In this document: in pieces, positions 40,561-55,215 of the stretch | How the letters are laid out: each line of letters begins with the position of its first letter | How positions within the stretch are numbered: position 1 is the first letter of the stretch | From: Candidatus Sungiibacteriota bacterium | GTDB taxonomy: Bacteria > Patescibacteriota > Minisyncoccia > Sungbacterales > HO2-52-23 | Reading direction: 5' to 3' | DNA: 64,000 bases | NCBI GenBank assembly: GCA_016180435.1 | Contig: JACPBG010000004.1 | Location: 134,151 to 198,150, forward strand | Translations under genes and position numbers: made by a program | Notes under the pieces: generated by a model | What the model was told of the DNA's origin: nothing | The model's database searches: none | Seen by the model: the letters and a program-made list of their open reading frames with translations, nothing else

Positions 40561-40902
40561 ATGTCAAAACTTATTAAATTATCAATAGCCGCATCGGTTC
40601 TTTTGCCGTTTATGGCTTCAGCAGCGGAGGTGGATACTATTATTACCACTGTAAAGAATACCGCCAATCTTATTATCGGGGTTTTGTTTATTTTTGCCAC
40701 CCTTGTATTTTTGTGGGGATTGGTGAAGTTTATTGCCAAAGCCGATGATCCTGGAGAGCGCGCCAAAGCCCGCGGTCTTATGATGTGGGGCATAGTCGGA
40801 CTTGCGGTTATGGCCGCGGCTTGGGGAATTACCCAGCTTTTGATTCAATATTTCGGGATAGGAAATGCTCCGCCAACCTTTGTGAAGCCCCCGTCTCCCT
40901 AG
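40561..40902 (+). CDS. VirB2/TrbC-like (T4SS-type) pilin paralog
   Basis: Signal peptide ...PFMASAAEV; conserved block TANLIIGVLFIFATLVFLWGLVKFIAKADDP...MWGIVGLAVMAAAWG shared with the two downstream paralogs. Confidence 0.5.
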   Translation: MSKLIKLSIAASVLLPFMASAAEVDTIITTVKNTANLIIGVLFIFATLVFLWGLVKFIAKADDPGERAKARGLMMWGIVGLAVMAAAWGITQLLIQYFGIGNAPPTFVKPPSP

Positions 40903-40993
40903 TTATTTTGTTCGCAAGACAATAGATCAATTTGTCATTTTTGGCATTTTGGGGAAGTATTATACTTCCCCAAAATGCTATCAGATCAAATTT

Positions 40994-41311
40994 ATGCGAT
41001 ATAAGCGAATTTTTGCCATTTTATTGTTGGCAGTGGCTCCGATTCTTGTTGCGGAGGCCAAAACTATCAATGACATCGTTACTTCCGTGCAAACCGGCAT
41101 AGTGAACCCGGCGATTAATTTTTTGCTTGCCGCCGCGTCCGTGGTATTTTTGTACGGCATAATCCAATATGTAATCGGGTCCCAGGGCGATCAAACCAAA
41201 TTAAATAAAGGCAAACAGATCATGTTCTGGGGAATTATCGGGATGTTCATTATGGTTTCGGCCTGGGGAATCGTGAAAATTTTATGCAATTTTTTCGAAA
41301 CATGCAGTTAA
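40994..41311 (+). CDS. VirB2/TrbC-like pilin paralog
   Basis: MRYKRIFAILLLAVAPILVAEA signal peptide; two TM helices; MFWGIIGMFIMVSAWG block. Confidence 0.45.
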   Translation: MRYKRIFAILLLAVAPILVAEAKTINDIVTSVQTGIVNPAINFLLAAASVVFLYGIIQYVIGSQGDQTKLNKGKQIMFWGIIGMFIMVSAWGIVKILCNFFETCS

Positions 41312-41449
41312 AATGTAAACCCCGTTACTTGACCGCGAGGCACTAAACCCATTGGCAAGTACGAACATCCATTACGGTAAACCTTGCGGCAGGACCGCAG
41401 GGCATTCAAGTAACGGGGTAAATCCCATTAAAATTTAGGTCGATAATCT

Positions 41450-41851
41450 ATGGGATTAGTTAATCGTATGCTTATCTTTATGGCCCATATTTATAATAAG
41501 AATTATATCCGGAGTTTTATATTTGCCGCGATTTCGCTTTTTTTGCCGCTGGCAGCGTATGCGCAGAACGTAGATGCGATAATAGGTAGTATTCGAACAA
41601 CAGCCAATCTTATCATTGCCCTGCTTTTTATTCTGGCAACATTGGTATTTTTGTTTGGATTGGTGAAATTCATTGCGAGCGCCGATGATCCTGCGGCGCG
41701 TTCCAAGTCCCACGGTCTTATGCTGTGGGGGATTGTCGGCATGGCGGTAATGGCCGCGGCTTGGGGACTCGCGTATCTTCTGGTAACCTATGTTTTTGGA
41801 GCAGGCGGGGGCCAGACGCCCACATTTGTCTCGCCACCCGCCATTAATTAA
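41450..41851 (+). CDS. VirB2/TrbC-like pilin paralog (likely start at Met 41468 or 41480)
   Basis: TANLIIALLFILATLVFLFGLVKFIASADDP...MLWGIVGMAVMAAAWG, ~75% identical to the 40561 paralog. Confidence 0.5.
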   Translation: MGLVNRMLIFMAHIYNKNYIRSFIFAAISLFLPLAAYAQNVDAIIGSIRTTANLIIALLFILATLVFLFGLVKFIASADDPAARSKSHGLMLWGIVGMAVMAAAWGLAYLLVTYVFGAGGGQTPTFVSPPAIN

Positions 41852-41855
41852 CTTT

Positions 41856-42218
41856 ATGATGCGTATTTTCCTTAAGGTTTTGGGGGTTGTTTTGTTTCTG
41901 CCTTATTTTGCATACGCCCAGACCTTTAGCCAAATTTTTAGTCGCATGGTAAACACCGCCAACCTGATTGTTGGCGCGCTTTTTATAATATCCACGGTGG
42001 TATTTTTTTGGGGAATCGTGAAATTCATAGCATCCTCGGATAATCCCCAGGAGCGCCAAAAAGCCAAAGCCATTTTGTGGTGGGGAATTATCGGAATGGC
42101 AGTCATGGCATCGGCCTGGGGACTGGCCTTTATTTTGAAAGAATATTTTCAGATCGGAAACCAACAGCCGCAATTTCTCTCTCCGCCGGCCTTAACACCC
42201 ATACCTCTGCCCGGTTAG
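41856..42218 (+). CDS. VirB2/TrbC-like pilin paralog
   Basis: MMRIFLKVLGVVLFLPYFAYAQ signal; TANLIVGALFIISTVVFFWGIVKFIASSDNP...WWGIIGMAVMASAWG. Confidence 0.5.
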   Translation: MMRIFLKVLGVVLFLPYFAYAQTFSQIFSRMVNTANLIVGALFIISTVVFFWGIVKFIASSDNPQERQKAKAILWWGIIGMAVMASAWGLAFILKEYFQIGNQQPQFLSPPALTPIPLPG

Positions 42219-42853: not shown

Positions 42854-43276
42854 TTCACCATCCTCCTTTTTGTGTAAGATCTATACTATATCCCAATTAT
42901 ACCATATTCCCATAAAAAATCAACCTTAGTTGCACCAAACCGGGTTTGGGGTCAAGACCTTTAATTTTTCATACATTTCTGTTATTCTTGCAAATATAGT
43001 GATGGGGACTATTGCCGAATGTGCTTTCGTAGCGAAAATGATGAATTTAGAGACAAAATCGCTGAACAAACTTGGCGGCCTATCTGAAAGATAAGCCAAG
43101 AAGTTTTGAAGCGATTTTGGCCGAAATTCATCATTTGCAGCAGAAATGGCATTCGGCAATAGTCCATATATAATAGGGCAGGTGGTGAAATGGCATACAC
43201 GCAGGGTTTACCCCGTCACTAAAATTTGCACAATTTAAGTAGATTCTCCGCATAACTAAGAAATATAAGTATTGGT

Positions 43277-43357
43277 GCGGGGATGGCGGAATGGCAGACG
43301 CGCTGGGTTTAGGACCCAGTGGGGAAACCCATGAGAGTTCAAATCTCTCTCCCCGCA
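43277..43357 (+). tRNA. tRNA-Leu (anticodon TAG), type II with long variable arm
   Basis: Acceptor gcgggga/tccccgc, anticodon stem ctggg-TTTAGGA-cccag, T-arm gagag-ttcaaat-ctctc; no encoded CCA. Confidence 0.7.
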
Positions 43358-43389
43358 TTGGAATCGCAAAATTATATAGTGCGCTTCAT

Positions 43390-43660
43390 ACGGTGCAAAT
43401 TTAGTGCGGGGTTTAGGACCCTGTGCCGCAAGGGCTGAAGCCAATTGCTTGGCTTCAGCGGGCAAAATGGTTGATAATCATTTTGCGGGATCACTTCCAT
43501 TAACTCGTTTATATACGAACGCATAGATAAAAGTGATCCCTGGGCTTTTGCGATAAGCAAAAGATTTAGCGAACCGGTGAAACCGTGTGAGCGTTAAAAA
43601 TTTCCCAGGGTTTCACTGACGAAAGCGAAACGAGAGTTCAAATCCCTCCCTGCCCAGAGC
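43390..43660 (+). pseudogene. Disrupted duplicate of tRNA-Leu(TAG) (anticodon arm and T-arm/acceptor-like 3' end separated by ~200 bp)
   Basis: gtgcggggtttaggaccc repeats the anticodon hairpin of the upstream tRNA without D-arm; 3' end cgagagttcaaatccctccctgccca is T-arm-like but has no matching 5' acceptor strand. Confidence 0.3.
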
Positions 43661-43667
43661 AAAAGTC

Positions 43668-43683
43668 GCCGATGTAGCTCAGC
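43668..43683 (+). other. 5' tRNA fragment (gccgatgtagctcagc) immediately upstream of tRNA-Thr
   Basis: Matches acceptor+D-arm start of a tRNA (GCCGATGTAGCTCAG) but breaks off after 16 nt. Confidence 0.3.
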
Positions 43684-43699
43684 TTGCCCTCCCACCCTT

Positions 43700-43772
43700 G
43701 CCAACGTAGCTCAGTCGGCAGAGCAACTCCATGGTAAGGAGTAGGTCGTCGGTTCGATTCCGACCGTTGGCT
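43700..43772 (+). tRNA. tRNA-Thr (anticodon GGT), CCA encoded
   Basis: gccaacg/cgttggc acceptor, D-arm tagctcagtcggcagagc, anticodon loop ATGGTAA, T-arm gtcgg-ttcgatt-ccgac, followed by cca. Confidence 0.8.
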
Positions 43773-43777
43773 CCAGT

Positions 43778-43870
43778 AGCAACTAAGATTTTTAGAATTT
43801 AGATTTTAGAACTTAGAACTTTAGACGAATTTTTTTCTCTAAGTTCTTAGTTCTATGTTCTAAGTTCTTA
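43778..43870. repeat. AT-rich palindromic element (ttagaa family) between tRNA-Thr and rpmG; likely terminator-like
   Basis: aactaagatttttagaatttagattttagaacttagaactttagacgaatttttttctctaagttcttagttctatgttctaagttctta. Confidence 0.45.
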
Positions 43871-43878
43871 TATGGGGC

Positions 43879-44040
43879 ATGCCTCAACCTAATTTAATTC
43901 GTATGCAGTGTACCTCCTGCAAGCGTTACAATTACTGGACGCGGAAAAACATCCGTAAAGTCGAGCGCAAACTGCAGTATAAAAAATATTGCAAGTGGTG
44001 CAGAAAACATACGGCTCATAAAGAGGCTAAAAAAACATAG
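43879..44040 (+). CDS. rpmG: 50S ribosomal protein L33 (not in the ORF track because <60 aa)
   Basis: MPQPNLIRMQCTSCKRYNYWTRKNIRKVERKLQYKKYCKWCRKHTAHKEAKKT: CxxC...CxxC zinc ribbon and NY-T-KN / KYC motif of L33; located between tRNAs with tRNA-Trp downstream as in many bacteria. Confidence 0.75.
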   Translation: MPQPNLIRMQCTSCKRYNYWTRKNIRKVERKLQYKKYCKWCRKHTAHKEAKKT

Positions 44041-44051
44041 GCCTTCTTGTG

Positions 44052-44190
44052 GGAAATTCTAAATTCGAAATCCTAATTTCTAAACAAATTCAAATCTCAA
44101 AATTTGAAATTCAAAAACGCGTTTAGAATTTAGAACATTCGAATTTTGAGATTGTTTAGGATTTAGAGCTTAGAATTTAGGATTTTATAT
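44052..44190. repeat. AT-rich palindromic element (ttagaa family)
   Basis: ttctaaattcgaaatcctaatttctaaacaaattcaaatctcaaaatttgaaattcaaaaacgcgtttagaatttagaacattcgaattttgagattgtttaggatttagagcttagaatttaggatttta. Confidence 0.45.
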
Positions 44191-44195
44191 TTTTG

Positions 44196-44267
44196 GGGGG
44201 TGTAAGCTCAACGGTAAACTGTCGGTCTCCAAAACCGATCTTCTCCGTTCGAATCGGAGCACCCCCG
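44196..44267 (+). tRNA. tRNA-Trp (anticodon CCA)
   Basis: gggggtg/caccccc acceptor, anticodon stem tcggt-CTCCAAA-accga, T-arm ctccg-ttcgaat-cggag. Confidence 0.8.
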
Positions 44268-47620: not shown

Positions 47621-48148
47621 GTGGGTAAAATGTCCCCTAAAAGATTTTTTCTGCTACCCTTGTTTTTCTTTATTGTTTGGTTTTGGATGGCCGGATGTTC
47701 AGTAACGCCAAAACTTTATTTCGGCCAGCCACTGGCGGCTTATAACTCCAAAACCGTTGAACGACTTTTACCTGTCATCCAAAGTAATTTTCCGGGATGG
47801 CATATTGAAAATCCTAACCAGCCCAAGCATGATGAGGGCGTAAAGCGCTGGCAGGCCAAAACCGGAAACGCGATGGATTATTATTTTCAGGAAATTCTTC
47901 CCACCATGTCCGGGGGTATTTTCCTTCCTTTTCCGGATGGTGCCTGGAGCGCAGGCGCTTACGGAGAAGCAGTACGCCTTGAAGAATTGGGGATGCCTCT
48001 CTTAAAAGTTACGCCAAACGGCGCGATAGAGCAAACCACCACGGAAAAAATGCGTCTATGGGATGGCGGAGTGTTGAGTGTCCGACAAACCAGAGAGAGA
48101 AATAAAATGCCGTATGATGAATGGCTACGGATGCATCAAAATCGTTAA
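47621..48148 (+). CDS. Hypothetical lipoprotein
   Basis: Signal/lipobox FWMAGCSV. Confidence 0.4.
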   Translation: MGKMSPKRFFLLPLFFFIVWFWMAGCSVTPKLYFGQPLAAYNSKTVERLLPVIQSNFPGWHIENPNQPKHDEGVKRWQAKTGNAMDYYFQEILPTMSGGIFLPFPDGAWSAGAYGEAVRLEELGMPLLKVTPNGAIEQTTTEKMRLWDGGVLSVRQTRERNKMPYDEWLRMHQNR

Positions 48149-48208
48149 TCTTGCGGAGATGTAATTAAAAATCGGTCAACAGACCGATTATTATTTTTCT
48201 CAAAAAAT

Positions 48209-49546
48209 TTACTTTTGCGCAATGACAACAGTTGCGAGAGCAGACGTTTTTCCTTCAGCCGCATCCATGCGCGCATCCAGCCATTTTTCAATGCGCTGGG
48301 ATATATCTTTTCCGAAAAGCGATCCAAGACATCCGACCAGGATTGCAATCGGAACAATGTCCGGGATTCTGGGGTTTAATGCAAAATACCCCATTTTGCA
48401 AAAATCCACCAAACCCTTGGGTATGCAGGCGCTTACATGGTACCCGGTGTGGTTTCTGTTTCCGGCGCGACTCGTGGCAGTGTGTAAAAACGAATCCAGA
48501 AAGAAAATTATGGCCGCGATAAGCATAATAACCATGCGCGGCAGATCATCCATGCCCGGGATCGGAAGAGGAAACGCAAGCGATTGTACATTGACTCCCA
48601 AGTAATTAAGAATAGATTCATTCGCTAGAATCCATGTTGCGGACAGAGCCGCAAAAATCGTATATGGAAGTTTGGATTGTTTAACCTGGGCCTTCTTTTC
48701 AAGATGGCGGTCGGGTGCTATGTCGGCTTTGCGTTCGATGATCATGGAGAAAAATGCCCCCAGGGTTGACCCGAGTACGGTTGATAATATATAGGGCAGA
48801 GAAAGCTCGATCGGCAAATGTACCGAAAAAAGATAGACCGCGTTTACATAGAAGATAGTTCCTCCGAGTAACTCTATGGCAACGATGTAATTATTGTTGC
48901 CGCGGTTTTGTGCCCGGGCCTTCATAGAAGTAAAAAGGTTTTGCAGAATGCTAAGCCCTACAATTACCATGAGGCCGTTTTTCAATGCAACGTCAAAATA
49001 GATCAGGCCATATAGGGTGTAGCCGATGAGTGCTGAAAAAAGCACCCAAAATGTCGGCTCTCTCGCAATATATCGCAGGCGTTTTCCCGGTGCGAGTTTA
49101 TCGTCTCGCGTGGCATCGGCTTTCAAGTCAAATCTTTTGACTACGTATTGCGCCCACAAAACCCCGATGGTACGGCCTGCGGCTACGCCGGCAATAAACG
49201 GGAACAAATAAATCCAATTGGCTCTGGCGTCGTCAAATAGATGCATGGTGGCATACCACGTTCCATTGGAAGCAACAGCCGCGACCGCATGCCAGAAAAA
49301 TGATCCGCGCTGGCGCAAATTGCTCACAAAAACAAAAGAAATAAATTGCGCGATGGCGGCTGAAAAGAAAATTATCGCCTTGCCGTAATCCGGCAGAAGA
49401 TATGCCAGCCCCACTCCGATTATAATGCTTGCCAGCGGTGTTAAACGGCTTCCGATGGTTACCTTGAATTTCAGGCGATGGTGCAGAAACCATCCGGACA
49501 AGCTCGCCAAGATCATCGCCAGTATCAGAATTTCGGTTTGATACAC
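48209..49546 (-). CDS. Polytopic integral membrane protein, function unknown
   Basis: ~12 predicted hydrophobic helices over 445 aa. Confidence 0.4.
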   Translation of the reverse strand: MYQTEILILAMILASLSGWFLHHRLKFKVTIGSRLTPLASIIIGVGLAYLLPDYGKAIIFFSAAIAQFISFVFVSNLRQRGSFFWHAVAAVASNGTWYATMHLFDDARANWIYLFPFIAGVAAGRTIGVLWAQYVVKRFDLKADATRDDKLAPGKRLRYIAREPTFWVLFSALIGYTLYGLIYFDVALKNGLMVIVGLSILQNLFTSMKARAQNRGNNNYIVAIELLGGTIFYVNAVYLFSVHLPIELSLPYILSTVLGSTLGAFFSMIIERKADIAPDRHLEKKAQVKQSKLPYTIFAALSATWILANESILNYLGVNVQSLAFPLPIPGMDDLPRMVIMLIAAIIFFLDSFLHTATSRAGNRNHTGYHVSACIPKGLVDFCKMGYFALNPRIPDIVPIAILVGCLGSLFGKDISQRIEKWLDARMDAAEGKTSALATVVIAQK

Positions 49547-50085
49547 AAAAAGCCCCTTTGGTAATGTGCTGTTGGTAGTAAAGCATAAACCCCATTTTTA
49601 TCTAATCAAAGTTTTCCACAGCCCCGAAGTTACAATAAAATCGGCGCGTAGCGCTACATTCAATATGCCCTCATACACTCTGAACAAAATTTAGTGGACA
49701 ACGAGAAAACTGTTAAGCGAGCCAATCACTTTCTTAATTCAATTAATGGAGGACTGATTTCTGTTATAAGTGAGGCATCCTGGGTTTTTCGGCAATGGGA
49801 GGGCGAACAGCTTGGCCCGAGCATTCCAAATTATTTGAGTGCTCGGTGTTCGCCCGACCCTGCAGGCCGCCGCAGGAGCGGCCGAAGCCTTGCCGAAAAA
49901 TACAGGATGCCGAGCGAAAATTTTGTCCAAACCGAAGTTCTTGAATTAAAAAGTGGTTGGCGAGCTGTATATTAAACCACAATTTTAAATTTTGTGAAGT
50001 TCCCAAACGCTTTTCCACAGGCATAATGAAAGCAGATGTTCTCTGACAATAACATAACGGCATCTATAGGCATGGAGGATCGGAA

Positions 50086-53000
50086 ATGAAAAAAAGATCA
50101 ACTTATTGGCTTGAAGATAACGAAAGAAGATTAAACCTATTGCGTGAACACCGACTTGACCCATGGGAAGAACTTGAGAAATTGTTTCCGGAAAAAACCA
50201 GACGTGCCATTAAACATACAATGTCCGGGTATAGAATTCGGAGGGATCGTGATAAAGTGCCTGATGCGAACGTTGGCCCACAAAAGTGGACTCAAGAACT
50301 TATTGAAGATCTCCGTGAAAATCGAAATAAGCCCTGGCCATTTCTTACAAAAAGATTCGGCTGTCGTAAACGTCAGCTGGAGAGTATTATGGGCGAAAAT
50401 GACATCCGGCGCGACCGTCTTGAAAATATCATCTGGGACGAGAATCACGAGCGGATTCTAATTGAAGCTGCGCTTGAATCTCATTCTTATAGTCCGTATA
50501 TTTCGGCGGGAAGAAAAAAACTTAGGGACATTATCATAGCAACACGCGCGAAATTAAAAGAATTAGGATTCAGGGGAAGTACAACTCATAATGCATTAAA
50601 GATGCATATACACAATTTAACGCCGGAACGAGTTGCCGCGCTTGGCTTCAAAGAGATCCTAATACCGATTATCTGGGGAAAATCCGAAAAGGGTAAAGTT
50701 GAAGAAGTAACGGTCAGGTGGTGGGAAGAACTTGAAAAATCCGACTCGGAACGGTATCAGAAGTTCAAGGATGAATTTTTGAACCGCTGGCGTTCTGATT
50801 ACCGTGTTGCCGGAAATACCAATGAGGACCTGCTTAAAGAATGGCAGGAAGCGGTAAGCGTAGACGGTTTAAAGGCCGCCGCAAGATTTTTGGGAGAAAC
50901 GCGAACTCGAATTGAAATCGTACGCGAATATAAAAGCGTGGAGGAACTAGATAAGAAGATTGACCGCCGCATGACCGAGCTTATTTACGAAAATATACTT
51001 AAGGAGGCGGGTGCTGAAGGTTTGCGGCAGCGCATTTTAATTGAATTTGCCGATGAAATTGCTAAGATCAAATTCAATTTGACTCCTGAGTATTTCGGAA
51101 AGAAGCTTGGCCGAATTTTGTGGGTTGACGAAAAGGGCGGCGCGCTTGCTACTCTGAGGGAGTTTATCGAAAAAGGAATCGTGGATAAATTTACCGAGTA
51201 CCATCGTCATATCCCTTTGGAAATGATTCAGTCCAAAGAACGGGAAGAAAGGGGTCTTACGACCGTTAAGCATCCTGCGCCCTTTGCTTCTAATTTCGTT
51301 CACGGCATCGGTCGCATTATAGGAGACGGAGATAAAGATATTCCGGAGGAAGAAATCCGCAATTTCAAACTGCCGGAAATATCTTTTGATAAGCCCCTGG
51401 AGATAGCGTTTCGGGACCCAAGAAATTTTAAGTTTGGAATCATGAGCGGTCCGCAGCTTGGTCTATTGCATACTCCTCGTATGGAGCAAAATCCAATTCG
51501 TCGCAGTTTCGCCTATGCCGAAAGAAATAAATGGGAAGCGTTTCTCCTAACAGGAATTTTTGATCTTGATATGACCAAGGCCGCGGGTCCGGTCAAGGGC
51601 CTGCGTTCTCTTTATAGCGGCAGAAATACCAACGTCAATGTGCTTGATCCCGGATATCAAGAAGTGGCGCTTGGCGTCATAAACGCGATTAAAGCCAACG
51701 AATTTACCAGCGAGATTATTTATGAAACCGCCAAAGAGGCAGCCAAAAATCTGTTGTGCGGATGGTGGAATGTTTTTATCCGTCCCGATAAGACCCCTGA
51801 ATTTTCGGGAAAAGTGTTGATTGTATTCGGTCCCAAGGAATTTGAAACCGTGATGGCCGCGGCGCATGCGGAAATCGTATTCATAACAGGACGCAAACAA
51901 GGAGAGCTTCGTGCTCTGGCAGCTGCAGCAGCACGCGCCATGAGGCGTGATGAGAAAGAAATTCGCGCGATTGATAAAAAACTTGCGGATCTGGAGCGCG
52001 ACCTTACTCGAGAAGAAGATCCGGCGGTTAAAGAAAAATTGCAAAAGACATATGAAGATCTGCGCAACACTTTAACCGAGGATAAGAAAGAAATTGAAGA
52101 ACTAAAAGCCGAATTCCGCCGACTTAAGGAACAGGAGTCGCGCACCCGCATGACTAACGTTACACCCGAAGATTGGCAGCGGTTCCATAAATTGGCACTG
52201 GCATTGATTTCTCTTCTCGTTCAACGCGCCATTCCAGGATCGCAAGTGATATCTTTGGGCGATACATTCATAAAAGTCGGACCGGAGCCAAAGGATAAAG
52301 TTCATATTGTTATCCCGGGGCATTTGCAAGTGACCGATGCGCTTCTCTCCAAATTTTGTGATTCTTATGCGTCCCTGGCGCTTTCAATGAAGATGGCGGA
52401 AACAGTTGTAATCTGCCATCCGCACGCGATTTCCTATGCCGTGACAGCGCGTGAAGTTGATGCCAAAGGAAAACGTGAATACTCCCCGCGAGTGTATGTG
52501 GCGCCAATTCTAGTGGATGGGAAATTCATGCGAGAGAAAACGAGCCAAATTGTTCGGGGCGGAGGGCATCCGATTAGGAGCGTGGTTAATCATCCCATGT
52601 TTCAGGGTGGACTCCTGGAAATTACCGCTACCAACGGTATGGTAAATGCATCTCCGGTTACGATTGAGGCACTGGGTTTTTACGAAACAATCGCGAGGCG
52701 TAAATCGCCGACTAAATATCCTACCGGTAAATACATCTGGATTATGGCTGCCACTGACCAGCATTGGGGAGGGCGCGCCAAGGAATTTTTGCGTAACCCT
52801 AGGGTTGGTAAAAGCTTGGGTATGGCCGAGGCGGTATTTTATCTTATGCATATGTCTGGTTACGGAGACGGCGACAAATTACCGCCATTCCATATGTTCG
52901 TGGTGAATGACGACCCGACTCAAGGACACCATTTTCCTGCAGAAAAAGAGCCACATCGGCACGAAATGCAGCACTATCGTTTCGAAAAAGAACTGCATGA

Positions 53001-53883
53001 ACTTCGCGGGCAAATCAAAGCAGAGAAAAATCCGCGAATACGCGAAACCCTAATTGACAAGATGGAGGCTTTCTCCAGTCGTCAAGTACGCGTGCGCGGA
53101 ACAGATTCTTATACCCGTCAGATCGACGCATTTGTGAAATGTCATATTAAGCCAAACATCGATATCTTTAGCGGAATGCTTTTGCGAAGCATTAAAGCAG
53201 GACTTAGGTTGCGTCCGGTTAGCGAATTTGAGGATTATCTTGAGGTTCCTTACGACACGTGTGATCTCGGGTTTGACAATAATGGCACGGGTAACCACGG
53301 CATAAAGACAACCGACGGGAATTTATCCGAAGGATGGTTATTCGCGGAATTCAAGAAATCGTACTTACTGGCGCGTCCGCAATGGGCCGGCCAAGAGGAA
53401 CTTCTGGATAAATATGTAAAGGGACCGGTCTTTGGAAATAAATTCATAGCTTTTGGGACAGTACAGGCATCCGGCGGCTATGAATACGCGTTTGATCTTC
53501 GCAATACCCCGGCGGCCAATGCGGTAGATTGGGGTAACACCGTTCGTCAGGGAGCAAGAATTGCGTTGCGACGAGCGAATTACTCACGCATTTTTGATGA
53601 AAAGTTTATTGTTCGGATGTCGGGCGATAAGCACTTTCTCGGGGCCTTGCTTGCCTCGTTTTTCCTGGAGTTCATGGCGCCCGCCGGAACACATACGGAT
53701 GCGTTTGGCGAGCTTGGTTTTCCGCCGAATAATACCGGAATCGTGTTTCTGGGCCTTCCCGCCGAAGGACCAAGATCCGGACCAATTCTTATCAGGCCAC
53801 TGCTCGTTCATCATTTACGCGATTATATCGAGGAACATCCTCGCTCGTTCGATTGGGAGGCATTTTTACCCAATCCATTATGA
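50086..53883 (+). CDS. Large (1265-aa) orphan protein: N-terminal tandem Myb/SANT-like Trp repeats, central coiled coil, C-terminal region with DxH / GDGD / GHH metal-site-like motifs
   Basis: W-x18-W spacing twice in first 110 aa (YWLEDNERRLNLLREHRLDPWEEL...; QKWTQELIEDLRENRNKPWPFL...); coiled coil ~aa 620-700; WIMAATDQHWGG...GYGDGDK...VVNDDPTQGHH; no Walker A. Confidence 0.5.
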   Translation: MKKRSTYWLEDNERRLNLLREHRLDPWEELEKLFPEKTRRAIKHTMSGYRIRRDRDKVPDANVGPQKWTQELIEDLRENRNKPWPFLTKRFGCRKRQLESIMGENDIRRDRLENIIWDENHERILIEAALESHSYSPYISAGRKKLRDIIIATRAKLKELGFRGSTTHNALKMHIHNLTPERVAALGFKEILIPIIWGKSEKGKVEEVTVRWWEELEKSDSERYQKFKDEFLNRWRSDYRVAGNTNEDLLKEWQEAVSVDGLKAAARFLGETRTRIEIVREYKSVEELDKKIDRRMTELIYENILKEAGAEGLRQRILIEFADEIAKIKFNLTPEYFGKKLGRILWVDEKGGALATLREFIEKGIVDKFTEYHRHIPLEMIQSKEREERGLTTVKHPAPFASNFVHGIGRIIGDGDKDIPEEEIRNFKLPEISFDKPLEIAFRDPRNFKFGIMSGPQLGLLHTPRMEQNPIRRSFAYAERNKWEAFLLTGIFDLDMTKAAGPVKGLRSLYSGRNTNVNVLDPGYQEVALGVINAIKANEFTSEIIYETAKEAAKNLLCGWWNVFIRPDKTPEFSGKVLIVFGPKEFETVMAAAHAEIVFITGRKQGELRALAAAAARAMRRDEKEIRAIDKKLADLERDLTREEDPAVKEKLQKTYEDLRNTLTEDKKEIEELKAEFRRLKEQESRTRMTNVTPEDWQRFHKLALALISLLVQRAIPGSQVISLGDTFIKVGPEPKDKVHIVIPGHLQVTDALLSKFCDSYASLALSMKMAETVVICHPHAISYAVTAREVDAKGKREYSPRVYVAPILVDGKFMREKTSQIVRGGGHPIRSVVNHPMFQGGLLEITATNGMVNASPVTIEALGFYETIARRKSPTKYPTGKYIWIMAATDQHWGGRAKEFLRNPRVGKSLGMAEAVFYLMHMSGYGDGDKLPPFHMFVVNDDPTQGHHFPAEKEPHRHEMQHYRFEKELHELRGQIKAEKNPRIRETLIDKMEAFSSRQVRVRGTDSYTRQIDAFVKCHIKPNIDIFSGMLLRSIKAGLRLRPVSEFEDYLEVPYDTCDLGFDNNGTGNHGIKTTDGNLSEGWLFAEFKKSYLLARPQWAGQEELLDKYVKGPVFGNKFIAFGTVQASGGYEYAFDLRNTPAANAVDWGNTVRQGARIALRRANYSRIFDEKFIVRMSGDKHFLGALLASFFLEFMAPAGTHTDAFGELGFPPNNTGIVFLGLPAEGPRSGPILIRPLLVHHLRDYIEEHPRSFDWEAFLPNPL

Positions 53884-54057
53884 ATTAGAGTACCCGAGAT
53901 TCATTTCTCGGGATTTTATTTATTTATTATCTATCAAAAAAAAGAGTAACGCTGTTGGACCAGGATTTTCACCCCGTTAGATAAATTTTAAGCAAACCTG
54001 CGGGACCTGGATTTTTACCCCGTTAGATACAAAATATTTAACCCGCTTCCGGGTAGG

Positions 54058-54132
54058 GCTGCCGGGCTTGGACTCGAACCAAGATAACATGCTTCAGAGG
54101 CATGCATCCTACCGTTAGATGACCCGGCAGCT
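54058..54132 (-). tRNA. tRNA-Gln-like (anticodon CTG), slightly irregular acceptor/T junction
   Basis: Minus strand gctgccgggtcatctaacggtaggatgcatgcCTCTGAAgcatgttatcttggttcgagtccaagcccggcagc: anticodon stem catgc/gcatg, loop CTCTGAA, T-arm cttgg-ttcgagt-ccaag. Confidence 0.5.
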
Positions 54133-54185
54133 CTACCAATAAACAGGCAGATTTTAAATAATTAACACGGTGAATTCTTAAGTAT

Positions 54186-54250
54186 CTAACGGGGCGGGCC
54201 AGGATAACATGCTCCAGAGGCATGTGTCCTACCGTTAGACGATCCCGCAA
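54186..54250 (-). pseudogene. Truncated duplicate of the tRNA-Gln-like gene (acceptor/D/anticodon arms, no T-arm)
   Basis: Minus strand gcgggatcgtctaacggtaggacacatgcctctggagcatgttatcctggcccgccccgttag parallels the 5' two-thirds of the adjacent tRNA. Confidence 0.35.
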
Positions 54251-54312
54251 AAATTGAAAAATCGTTCCGTTATCGGAACGATTTTAAATATAGCATAAAA
54301 GGCGCAAAAAAT

Positions 54313-55215
54313 CTATATATCCAGGTACTTTCGCACCGCGAGGAAACTGGAAAATACGCCGATTAAAATTCCGGTGCCGAATAAAATTGCGGAAAATTCT
54401 AATAAATTCATGAGGAAATATTGGAACAGATCAAAACTCGGCATAAGAAGAATCAGGCGCGGGGAAATAAGCCAGACCAGCGGAAAAAATATCAAAACCG
54501 TTAAAATCGCGGCCGATGCTCCGTAAAGCACGCCGGAAACCAGAAACGGCCCGCGGATAAACCAGCGCGCAGCGCCCACCAGACGCATAATGCCGATTTC
54601 TTCCCGCATGGTATAAATTGCCATACGAATTGTATTTACTGAGACCAAAATAGCGATGATGGAAAGCACCAAAACAAGCACCGAACCCCCGCCGCGCACC
54701 GAATTCAAAATAGTGGACAGGCGCTCAATCACCAGCTTGTTTTCAAAATAATTTATTTTATCAATCACCGGATATTTTTTGCCGGATAAAAATTCGCTGA
54801 TAGCCGCATATTGCGCTGGATTTTTGGCGCGAATATTCAAACTTGCCTGCAGGGGATTTTCTCCCAATTCTTCCAGCGCTTGTCCGATAAGTTCCTCGTC
54901 TTTATGGCGCGCGCGGAAAACTTGCAGTGCTTCGTCCCGCGAAACATATTGGACTTGAGCCACATCCGGATGCGATTCCAAATCCTTTTTTACCGCGAAA
55001 ATGTTTTCCTCCGGGGCATCGGAGGCAAAATATACGGATACGTCAATTTTGGACCCGAACTCCGCCAAAATGGTGGATGCAAAAGCCGAAAGGAAAATCA
55101 AATTCCCCAAAACAAAAAGCGAGAGCACCATGACCATCACAGTCGCGGCCGAAAGCCAGCCGTTGCGTTTGAAATTCAAAAATCCGGTTTTTAGAATTCG
55201 TTTTAGTGTTGTCAT
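54313..55215 (-). CDS. ftsX: Cell division ABC transporter permease FtsX
   Basis: N-terminal LKRILKTGFLNFKRNGWLSAATVMVMVLSLFVLG signature, 4 TM with large periplasmic loop. Confidence 0.8.
   Translation of the reverse strand: MTTLKRILKTGFLNFKRNGWLSAATVMVMVLSLFVLGNLIFLSAFASTILAEFGSKIDVSVYFASDAPEENIFAVKKDLESHPDVAQVQYVSRDEALQVFRARHKDEELIGQALEELGENPLQASLNIRAKNPAQYAAISEFLSGKKYPVIDKINYFENKLVIERLSTILNSVRGGGSVLVLVLSIIAILVSVNTIRMAIYTMREEIGIMRLVGAARWFIRGPFLVSGVLYGASAAILTVLIFFPLVWLISPRLILLMPSFDLFQYFLMNLLEFSAILFGTGILIGVFSSFLAVRKYLDI

What the first reader, a model, noticed from the sequence alone, without database searches (positions are those of the whole stretch)
49547..54260. Orphan 1265-aa protein with N-terminal tandem Myb/SANT-like repeats in a tRNA-flanked locus
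The 3.8-kb ORF (50086-53883) has no ATPase, polymerase or nuclease signature I can recognise. It does show three things. First, two Trp-spaced repeats (W-x~19-W) in the first ~110 aa that look like Myb/SANT-type helix-turn-helix DNA-binding repeats. Second, a ~80-aa charged coiled coil (ADLERDLTREEDPAVKEKLQKTYEDLRNTLTEDKKEIEELKAEFRRLKEQE). Third, a C-terminal third with metal-site-like motifs in Mre11/calcineurin-like order (ATDQHWGG ... GYGDGDK ... VVNDDPTQGHH ... HRHEMQH). It is preceded by an unusually long (~540 bp) non-coding, moderately GC-rich leader with GC hairpins (ctgcaggccgccgcaggagcggcc). It is followed immediately by a tRNA-Gln-like gene plus tRNA-fragment direct repeats (accccgttagata x2, a truncated tRNA copy), which is the typical signature of an integration hot spot. 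A large DNA-binding protein with a possible phosphoesterase module at a tRNA-associated site could be the core of an uncharacterised replication, mobility or defence function.
Basis: partly seen in the sequence, partly recalled or inferred. Interest (0 to 1): 0.7.

Follow-up and report, generated by a model that had tools for sequence, protein, structure and literature searches.

The report
CPR-specific DP1/Mre11-like phosphoesterase with membrane partner
The 1265-aa gene belongs to an unannotated protein family, found only in ultra-small CPR/Patescibacteria bacteria, that joins a swappable DNA-binding head and a coiled coil to a two-metal phosphoesterase domain folded like the DNA nucleases DP1 and Mre11; it usually sits next to an equally unknown membrane protein at an ordinary chromosomal site and shows no sign of being mobile.

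The parts
47621..48148 (+). Small (175 aa) partner protein with a lipoprotein-type signal (…WMAGC S); no known family
   Evidence: Homolog within 3 kb of the large gene in 13 of 50 loci. It is 55% identical to the L001 protein and 76-82% to the L006 protein. No Pfam, PDB or PADLOC hit. The lipobox was read from the sequence.
48209..49546 (-). Polytopic membrane partner (445 aa) made of three internal repeats, each with an S-R-x3-R-x-N-x2-Y-H motif and a P-Y-x2-G-x3-G-S…I-E helix; no known family
   Evidence: Internal repeats are visible in BLASTP against the L001 homolog. Homolog within 3 kb of the large gene in 32 of 50 loci, and in 22 of 32 loci that have at least 2.5 kb on both flanks. Hydrophobic segments found. 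No Pfam, PDB or PADLOC match.
49547..50085 (.). Divergent 539-bp intergenic leader. Two blocks conserved with L006/L060/L061 (about 49595-49665 and 49975-50055) each carry TTTTCCACAG (49612, 50011) and a promoter-like site (49613-49641; 50000-50027). They flank a poorly conserved region that folds into a long hairpin (about 49706-49972). RBS GGAGGA at 50074-50079.
   Evidence: Alignments. Fold z = -5.5 for the window and -6.95 for L006. Inverted repeats. Promoter scan. No Rfam hit. The hairpin arm is unique in the window. The long leader is seen only in the window and the L006 group; other loci with the same gene order have gaps of 113-176 bp (coordinates).
50086..53883 (+). 1265-aa protein: HTH head, helical region, non-catalytic alpha/beta domain with a coiled-coil hairpin, beta-rich module, and catalytic metallophosphoesterase domain
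50098..50418 (+). Two tandem Trp-spaced repeats (aa 5-55 and 65-111), Myb/SANT-like. They belong to a variable N-terminal head (aa 1-204) shared by only a few family members.
   Evidence: Internal repeat E = 2e-5. c-Myb R3 aligned in register at E = 0.1-0.2. hhalign P = 6e-4, probability 29%. One member hits Pfam Myb_DNA-bind_3 at 0.016. The head is shared with P0004, P0005, P0011, P0070, P0073 and partly P0007. Other members carry other HTH domains.
51832..52230 (+). Antiparallel coiled-coil hairpin (aa 583-715) inserted in the middle alpha/beta domain (aa ~440-770). That domain lacks metal-binding His/Asp residues (conserved N454, G459, D495, E585).
   Evidence: AF2 helices 154-213, 217-257 and 265-286 of the model, i.e. 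aa 583-715. Its length varies in the family. The only hits are composition-type coiled-coil matches, including PADLOC LmuB 3.6e-6. Column counts.
52402..52662 (+). Beta-rich module (aa 773-859) immediately before the catalytic domain; a possible OB-like barrel as in DP1 and the polymerase B-subunits
52723..53880 (+). Catalytic calcineurin-like metallophosphoesterase domain (aa 880-1265) with a ~120-aa helical insertion between motifs II and III. Motif I ATDQHWGG 52750-52773; II VVNDDPTQGHH 52900-52932; III GTGNH 53284-53298; IV GDKH 53623-53634; V GTHTD 53686-53700.
   Evidence: Coordinates. Conservation in 79 sequences: D891 75, H893 75, D943 79, G1069 79, N1070 72, H1071 79, H1183 76, H1203 28, D1205 57. 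Fold matches.
53893..53912 (+). Intrinsic-terminator-like hairpin plus T-run ending the transcription unit
   Evidence: sequence.
53945..54249 (-). Decayed tandem array of tRNA-Gln-derived units: two 39-nt mini-units lacking the anticodon arm (53945-53983, 53991-54029), the intact tRNA-Gln(ctg) (54056-54130), and a copy lacking the T-loop (54199-54249). Neighbouring feature, not part of the protein system.

Best explanation
The gene encodes a cytoplasmic multidomain enzyme of a previously unannotated, Patescibacteria-restricted family. Its C-terminal domain is an active two-metal phosphoesterase of the Mre11/SbcD/PolD-DP1 nuclease type. The proposed metal ligands are D891, H893, D943, N1070 and H1183, plus H1203 or D1205, with the invariant H1071 of the GNH motif as proton donor. 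An exchangeable N-terminal helix-turn-helix head, here two Myb-like repeats, brings the enzyme to DNA. A non-catalytic alpha/beta domain carries a long coiled-coil hairpin that probably mediates dimerisation or partner contact. The enzyme works with the adjacent polytopic membrane protein, and in some lineages also with a small lipoprotein or a separate MerR/HTH_17 protein, so its most likely job is cutting or trimming DNA at the cell membrane. It is a resident chromosomal module, not cargo of an element integrated at the tRNA. Shown: the fold, motif conservation, family size and taxonomic range, gene linkage, and absence of mobility genes among annotated neighbours. Inferred: DNA as substrate, DNA binding by the head, physical interaction with the membrane protein, and the biological role (DNA uptake/salvage, defence or repair).
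Confidence: 0.5

Rival explanations
1. A non-nuclease phosphoesterase in a nutrient-salvage module. The lipoprotein binds an external substrate, the triple-repeat membrane protein imports it, and the large protein hydrolyses a nucleotide, cyclic or oligo-nucleotide, or another phosphoester in the cytoplasm. The HTH head then acts only as an autoregulator on the shared divergent promoter region.
Confidence: 0.22
2. An anti-phage or anti-foreign-DNA defence pair. The membrane protein senses infection or DNA entry and licenses the HTH-coiled-coil nuclease to degrade the invading DNA, analogous in logic to Zorya or Kiwa.
For: Partner and effector subtypes are mixed and matched between close genomes. 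Window vs L006: small protein 82%, membrane 66%, large protein 30%. Window vs L001: large protein 58%, membrane 25-33%. The N-terminal heads are swapped. The distribution looks patchy (52 loci found by motif scan). The adjacent HTH_17 gene resembles PADLOC mad1. A membrane-plus-nuclease logic is known from defence systems (background knowledge).
Against: No PADLOC model matches the large, membrane or small proteins beyond coiled-coil noise. The locus is embedded in housekeeping genes at a recurrent site rather than in a defence island. No neighbouring restriction, toxin or abortive-infection genes were seen. The family is nearly absent from viral contigs, which fits this reading but does not discriminate.
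Confidence: 0.18
3. One reading: cargo of a mobile or integrative element inserted at a tRNA hot spot, encoding a replication or mobility function.
For: tRNA-Gln with tRNA-derived repeats lies 172 nt downstream. In several other lineages the gene abuts the 3' end of tRNA-Trp in either orientation. L003 has an excisionase-like HTH_17 gene nearby. The closest fold, DP1, is a polymerase subunit.
Against: No integrase, recombinase, relaxase or replicase appears among the recurrent neighbours that were annotated, and no integrase-sized unannotated ORF lies in window 40-64 kb. The repeats are tandem decayed tRNA copies retaining 5' or acceptor parts, not 3'-end direct repeats bracketing the module. 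Window and L001 share flanking synteny at 45-60% identity. GC content is not deviant: 0.43-0.48 against 0.44-0.52 for its neighbours. No DP2-like or other polymerase gene is linked.
Confidence: 0.05
4. A catalytically inactive architectural protein: a DNA-binding, membrane-tethered coiled-coil scaffold, for example for chromosome anchoring near the terminus, whose phosphoesterase fold is only structural, as in the eukaryotic polymerase B-subunits.
Against: The C-terminal domain keeps motifs I-IV at 91-100% across 79 divergent sequences, including the proton-donor His, which is not expected for a pure scaffold. The strand switch is not present at the homologous locus L001.
Confidence: 0.05

Closest known systems
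PolD small subunit DP1 (archaeal 3'-5' proofreading exonuclease; PDB 5ihe) and the related eukaryotic Pol alpha/delta/epsilon B-subunits (Pfam DNA_pol_E_B)
   Different: No sequence-level match, with about 10% identity in the structural alignment. The organisms are bacteria (CPR), not archaea. No DP2 or polymerase partner gene. Much larger, with an HTH head, an extra non-catalytic domain holding a coiled coil, and a ~120-aa helical insertion between motifs II and III. Motif V is divergent. Linked to a membrane protein.
Mre11 / SbcD nucleases of the Mre11-Rad50 (SbcCD) complex
   Different: No Rad50/SbcC ABC-ATPase gene in the neighbourhood. The coiled coil is part of the same polypeptide, has no CxxC zinc hook (the apex reads …REEDP…) and is only about 130 aa. 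No Pfam or NCBIfam SbcD/Mre11 match.
Phage-encoded DP1-like / calcineurin-like phosphoesterases (BFVD entries such as A0A8S5Q987, 'DNA polymerase II small subunit')
   Same: Foldseek E = 1.6e-5 to 1e-3 at probability 1.0, over 370-500 aligned columns.
   Different: These are single-domain proteins of 360-510 aa. The CPR family is nearly absent from viral contigs: one weak partial hit.
Myb/SANT helix-turn-helix repeats (c-Myb R2R3)
   Same: Two tandem ~45-aa repeats with spaced Trp (W8/W27, W68/W84), aligned in register with c-Myb R3 including the 'L-(F/L)-P-x-(K/R)-T-x-x-A-I-K' recognition-helix region.
   Different: The statistics are below significance (E 0.1-0.2; hhalign probability 29%). 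The third Trp is replaced (M46, M102). No Pfam Myb hit for the window protein. No structure model was obtained for this part.

Membership tests
Calcineurin-like metallophosphoesterase superfamily | Four-layer alpha/beta-beta/alpha sandwich fold | tested here: met
Calcineurin-like metallophosphoesterase superfamily | Motifs I DxH, II GDxxD, III GNH(D/E) and IV H, in that order, carrying the metal ligands | tested here: met
   D891-x-H893, D942-D943, G1069-N1070-H1071 and H1183 are conserved in 72-79 of 79 sequences (D942 in 50).
Calcineurin-like metallophosphoesterase superfamily | Motif V GHxH | tested here: inconclusive
   The window has G1201-T-H1203-T-D1205. Across the family His is present in 28 of 79 and D1205 in 57 of 79.
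Calcineurin-like metallophosphoesterase superfamily | Match to a curated sequence model (Pfam Metallophos/Metallophos_2) | tested here: not met
   No hit for the window protein at E <= 1 or for the 48 members scanned (the window protein included) at E <= 0.01. The family profile finds no PDB chain.
PolD DP1 / polymerase B-subunit family | OB-fold domain inserted in the N-terminal part of the phosphodiesterase domain | tested here: inconclusive
   A beta-rich module at aa 773-859 precedes motif I, and about 90 more residues align with DP1 than with minimal metallophosphoesterases. No domain-by-domain superposition was possible.
PolD DP1 / polymerase B-subunit family | Partnership with a catalytic polymerase subunit (DP2 or a family-B polymerase) | tested here: not met
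   No polymerase-like cluster among neighbours in 50 loci. PolD is described as exclusive to Archaea (abstracts of PMC10721889 and PMC6741145).
PolD DP1 / polymerase B-subunit family | Sequence match to Pfam DNA_pol_E_B | tested here: not met
Mre11/SbcD | Adjacent or co-occurring Rad50/SbcC ABC ATPase with a zinc-hook coiled coil | tested here: not met
   No such neighbour. The NCBIfam SbcC hit at E 0.065 is coiled-coil noise. There is no CxxC at the coiled-coil apex.
Myb/SANT DNA-binding repeats | Tandem three-helix repeats of ~50 aa with regularly spaced Trp and a significant match to Myb models | tested here: inconclusive
   The repeat is real (E 2e-5) and the Trp spacing was confirmed. Myb R3 matches at E 0.1-0.2, hhalign probability 29%, Pfam Myb_DNA-bind_3 at 0.016 in one relative.
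tRNA-integrated genomic island / integrative element | Integrase or recombinase gene plus direct repeats of the tRNA 3' end bracketing the island | tested here: not met
   No integrase among the recurrent neighbours annotated, and no integrase-sized unannotated ORF in window 40-64 kb. The repeats are tandem degenerate tRNA copies on one side only.
Known anti-phage defence systems (PADLOC 2.0) | Match of the component proteins to defence-system models | tested here: not met
   Only an LmuB coiled-coil match (3.6e-6, aa 584-717) for the large protein. Nothing for the membrane protein, the small protein or five other family members apart from N-terminal HTH matches and one weak AbiEii hit (E 0.0018, P0147). 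The linked HTH_17 gene resembles mad1.

The most novel reading that the evidence does not exclude
The family would be the first cellular bacterial relative of the archaeal PolD DP1 / eukaryotic B-subunit 'OB + phosphodiesterase' exonuclease module. In CPR bacteria it would have been recruited, together with a novel triple-repeat membrane protein and sometimes an outward-facing lipoprotein, into a membrane-coupled DNA-processing machine, for example one degrading or trimming DNA taken up from the host for nucleotide scavenging, or destroying invading DNA. That would be both a new CPR-specific cellular system and a new data point for the origin of the polymerase B-subunit lineage.
Probability: 0.2. 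Interest if true: 0.8.

Novelty: new variant of a known kind. Interest (0 to 1): 0.55.

Why it matters
CPR/Patescibacteria make up a large share of bacterial diversity, and most of their lineage-specific proteins have no assigned function. This work turns one 'hypothetical protein' into a defined family of about 190 clusters. The family has a confidently predicted catalytic fold, identified active-site residues, a conserved membrane partner and a recurrent chromosomal position. That gives clear targets for biochemistry (nuclease assays, point mutants) and for genetics in the few tractable CPR systems. Its closest structural kin are DP1 and the polymerase B-subunits rather than generic phosphoesterases. 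If that holds up domain by domain, it bears on how this exonuclease lineage spread between domains of life and viruses. If the module proves to handle incoming DNA at the membrane, it would touch on how these reduced episymbionts obtain nucleotides or defend themselves.

Tried and rejected
1. Direct family scans of the protein (Pfam, NCBIfam, PHROGs, PADLOC, PDB sequences) returned only coiled-coil composition matches. I rejected the LmuB hit (3.6e-6) as homology because it covers only the coiled coil.

2. The word-indexed homolog search found only 6 proteins, 6 again with the six-sequence profile, and 4 with the 73-sequence profile. It badly under-reports the family; the exhaustive HMM search found 189.

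3. The first AF2 run with 6 sequences gave pLDDT 55.8 and was not used for fold searching. A 111-sequence alignment was too large to submit. The 79-sequence run succeeded.

4. The family profile against PDB sequences, and the N-terminal segment aa 205-300 against PDB, found nothing.

5. An internal hhalign of the middle domain against the catalytic domain gave probability 6%, so I do not claim a duplicated phosphoesterase domain from sequence.

6. The idea that the small partner is nucleoside-2-deoxyribosyltransferase-like came from memory of motif shape and has no support from Pfam or PDB. Dropped.

7. No Rfam family matches the leader. RNAalifold on the two leader versions was uninformative because MAFFT misaligns the 3' arm. 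Metagenome scans for the leader blocks returned only L006-like contigs, so covariation cannot be judged with two lineages.

8. The hairpin as a repeated MITE: its arm occurs only once in the 64-kb window.

10. Literature searches found no description of this family.

Full report
OBSERVATION. The ORF is exactly as described: 50086..53883 on the + strand, 1265 aa. GGAGGA lies six nt upstream of the ATG, and a terminator-like hairpin plus T-run follows at 53893-53912. The upstream gap to the divergently transcribed 445-aa gene is 539 bp and contains the quoted GC hairpin. ARAGORN and Rfam place tRNA-Gln(ctg) at 54056-54130 on the minus strand. 'CCCCGTTAGATA' occurs three times against 0.18 expected. 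An 86% copy of the tRNA's 5' two-thirds lies at 54199-54249.

NOT AN ORPHAN. Pfam, NCBIfam, PHROGs, PADLOC and PDB sequences give only coiled-coil composition hits for aa ~585-715. The word-indexed search found just six proteins; the window's own record is a Candidatus Sungbacteria MAG. An exhaustive HMMER search with a profile of the conserved core (aa 205-1265) found 189 representatives at 50% identity (126 at E <= 1e-30), mostly 930-1060 aa long. A motif-anchored scan of one genome per species returned 52 loci. All but one are from Patescibacteria: Yanofsky-, Lloyd-, Zambryski-, Giovannoni-, Azam- and Tagabacteria, Paceibacterota and generic CPR labels. The exception is a 3-kb contig binned as Methanosarcinales, probably a binning error. 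Only one weak partial hit occurs in viral contigs. None of the 48 members scanned matches a Pfam phosphoesterase model. The family is real, sizeable, CPR-restricted and unannotated.

WHAT THE PROTEIN IS. Alignment of the close relatives shows invariant D891-x-H893, D942-D943, G1069-N1070-H1071, H1183 and G1201-x-H1203. This is the order of calcineurin-like phosphoesterase motifs I-V. In 79 diverse members the counts are D891 75, H893 75, D943 79, G1069 79, N1070 72, H1071 79 and H1183 76. Motif V is divergent, with H1203 in 28 and D1205 in 57. GYGDGDK and HRHEMQH are not conserved, and GNH was missed.

The region upstream of that module (aa ~440-770) is an alpha/beta domain without metal ligands, into which a ~130-aa antiparallel coiled-coil hairpin is inserted. 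A profile-profile test for homology between this domain and the catalytic one was not significant.

N-TERMINAL HEAD. Residues 19-55 and 76-111 are an internal repeat (E = 2e-5). Both the single sequence and a six-member profile repeatedly pick c-Myb repeat 3 in register, but only at E = 0.1-1. hhalign gives P = 6e-4 and probability 29%. One relative touches Pfam Myb_DNA-bind_3 at 0.016. This head is shared by only six other family members. Other members carry HTH_11, HTH_5, HTH_24, HTH_36, HTH_3 or homeodomain-like domains at the N-terminus, and most members have none. A DNA-binding head is therefore a recurrent but exchangeable accessory. The Myb assignment is plausible, not demonstrated.

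GENOMIC CONTEXT. I compared 50 non-redundant loci by clustering all ORFs. The one strongly linked neighbour is a polytopic membrane protein, 48209-49546 (-) in the window. It lies within 3 kb in 32 of 50 loci and in 22 of 32 loci that have at least 2.5 kb on both sides. It is built of three internal repeats with conserved S-R-x3-R…Y-H and G-x3-G-S…I-E motifs and matches no Pfam, PDB or PADLOC entry.

A ~175-aa protein with a lipoprotein signal (47621-48148) is linked in 13 loci, and a MerR/HTH_17 protein in 15. Either the membrane or the small protein is near the gene in 27 of the 32 well-flanked loci. The other recurrent neighbours are housekeeping genes: IMPDH, PCMT, GatB, EF-Ts and TPR proteins. 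None of the nine annotated neighbour clusters is an integrase, relaxase, polymerase or Rad50-like ATPase.

The window and L001 share synteny (T4SS pilins, tRNA-Leu/Thr/Trp, a methyltransferase, then the module) at 45-60% protein identity. Across the family the gene, or the gene pair, lies within 1 kb of tRNA-Trp(cca), usually the last tRNA of a Thr-Tyr-Thr-Trp cluster, in 12 loci, and within 6 kb in 19 including the window. tRNA-Gln adjacency is seen only in the window and L044.

The repeats next to tRNA-Gln align as tandem degenerate tRNA copies. Two mini-units lack the anticodon arm and one copy lacks the T-loop, all on the tRNA's strand. That is a decayed tRNA array, not att sites around an island. 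GC content of the gene is unremarkable. The mobility and integration-hot-spot interpretation is therefore not supported.

An oddity is that the parts are mixed between lineages. Against L006 the small and membrane proteins are 82% and 66% identical but the large protein only 30%. Against L001 the large protein is 58% identical but the membrane protein 25-33%. This implies recombinational exchange or very uneven rates of change.

THE LEADER. Only the window and the L006 group (L006, L060, L061) have a long intergenic region. Other loci with the same gene order have 113-176 bp. Two blocks at its ends are conserved, each holding TTTTCCACAG and a sigma-70-like site (49613-49641 and 50000-50027). 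Between them the sequence is diverged and has many indels, yet both versions fold into long hairpins far more stable than shuffled controls (z = -5.5 and -6.95). No Rfam family matches, and the hairpin arm is not repeated elsewhere in the window. With two independent versions, covariation cannot be assessed. One reading is a small hairpin RNA gene, or a long structured 5' leader, between divergent promoters. This is inferred only.

MECHANISM AND RIVALS. Several lines point to a DNA-directed two-metal nuclease acting with a membrane partner (confidence 0.5): conserved catalytic residues, nearest structural neighbours that are nucleases, fused or adjacent HTH modules, a coiled coil typical of DNA-handling machines, and the conserved membrane partner. 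The fold, the motifs, the distribution and the linkage are shown. The substrate, DNA binding, complex formation and biological role are inferred.

- Rival 2, a defence pair of membrane sensor plus nuclease (0.18). Supported by the mix-and-match evolution; weakened by the housekeeping context and the absence of PADLOC matches.
- Rival 3, the mobile-element reading (0.05).
- Rival 4, an inactive scaffold (0.05).

COMPARISON AND NOVELTY. By fold and motifs the protein is a member of the calcineurin-like phosphoesterase superfamily, although it fails every curated sequence model. It works like, and looks most like, DP1 and Mre11. It is not a member of the DP1/B-subunit family (no polymerase partner, no sequence match) or the Mre11/SbcD family (no Rad50/SbcC partner). 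The architecture of HTH head, non-catalytic domain with coiled coil, beta module and catalytic domain with a helical insert, together with the partnership with a novel membrane protein, has no described counterpart that I could find in the libraries or in the literature searches. I rate it a new variant of a known kind, interest 0.55.

Noticed in passing
window 48209-49546 (-); homologs e.g. L006:1347-2675, L001:7764-8978, L017:10813-11931: Unannotated polytopic membrane protein family made of three internal repeats (S-R-x3-R-x-N-x2-Y-H … P-Y-x2-G-x3-G-S … I-E). It comes in a ~445-aa type and a ~380-410-aa type and is the most consistently linked neighbour of the large gene. No Pfam, PDB or PADLOC match.
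   Followed up: partly
window 47621-48148 (+); L001:9304-9843, L006:765-1274, L003:3226-3810: Small (~170-200 aa) conserved protein with invariant Y33, F34, Y41, P65, M85, D106, G112, E116, T157, R160. It has a lipoprotein-type signal in the window, L001 and L006 but none in L003. No family match.
   Followed up: partly
window 47621-53883 compared with L006 and L001: Discordant divergence inside the three-gene module. Window vs L006: small protein 82%, membrane 66%, large protein 30% identity. Window vs L001: small protein 55%, membrane 25-33%, large protein 58%. This suggests cassette-like exchange of the large and membrane genes between lineages.
   Followed up: partly
loci L009, L010, L017, L018, L022, L023, L032, L047, L049, L043, L003, L048; window 43276-44267: The gene or gene pair recurrently lies within about 100-1000 nt of tRNA-Trp(cca), the last gene of a Thr(tgt)-Tyr-Thr(ggt)-Trp cluster, and occurs in either orientation relative to the tRNA. 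This is either conserved synteny or an ancient insertion site. No integrase was seen.
   Followed up: partly
window 49645-49995: A long hairpin-forming stretch (z = -5.5) lies downstream of a conserved promoter-like site (49613-49641) and is followed by T-runs (~49975-49995). The L006 group has a different sequence at the same place that folds even better (z = -6.95). It could be a small structured RNA or a regulatory leader. No Rfam match.
   Followed up: partly
window 49612, 50011, 60065 (exact) and 13 one-mismatch sites: TTTTCCACAG is over-represented in the window: 16 sites with at most one mismatch against 5.35 expected, and 0 of 100 shuffles reach 16. Two exact copies sit in the conserved blocks of the leader. 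It may be a promoter or operator element.
   Followed up: no
window ~53000-55000: Cumulative GC skew peaks at about 54 kb, and gene orientation switches from mostly + to uniformly - (FtsX, FtsE and PrfB, read from sequence motifs, and downstream genes) right after the large gene. This would fit a replication terminus or a strand-composition boundary. No such switch is seen at the homologous locus L001.
   Followed up: no
window 53945-54249 (-): Four tandem tRNA-Gln-derived units: one intact tRNA, one copy missing the T-loop, and two 39-nt mini-units retaining the acceptor, D-loop and T-arm remnants. The intact tRNA is flanked by 26-nt imperfect inverted repeats (54018-54043 / 54169-54194).
   Followed up: yes
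window 40561-42218; L001:2010-4181: A cluster of three or four small T4SS-pilin (PF18895/TrbC) genes lies upstream of the tRNA-Leu/Thr/Trp cluster and is syntenic between the window and L001.
   Followed up: no
L003:2889-3137 and 14 other loci: An 82-aa MerR/HTH_17 protein often lies one or two genes from the large gene. It matches PADLOC 'mad1' (E 6.4e-17), probably through generic HTH_17 similarity. L003 also has a protein of at least 794 aa with an N-terminal HTH_17.
   Followed up: partly
L055:5557-9038, L054:1711-4030, L013:228-3205: In three genomes the large gene is split into two adjacent or overlapping ORFs. These are either frameshifted pseudogenes or assembly errors.
   Followed up: no
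L013 (CAZNVD010000059.1, 3267 nt): One family member sits on a 3.3-kb contig binned as an 'uncultured Methanosarcinales archaeon'. All other loci are Patescibacteria, so this is probably a binning error.
   Followed up: no
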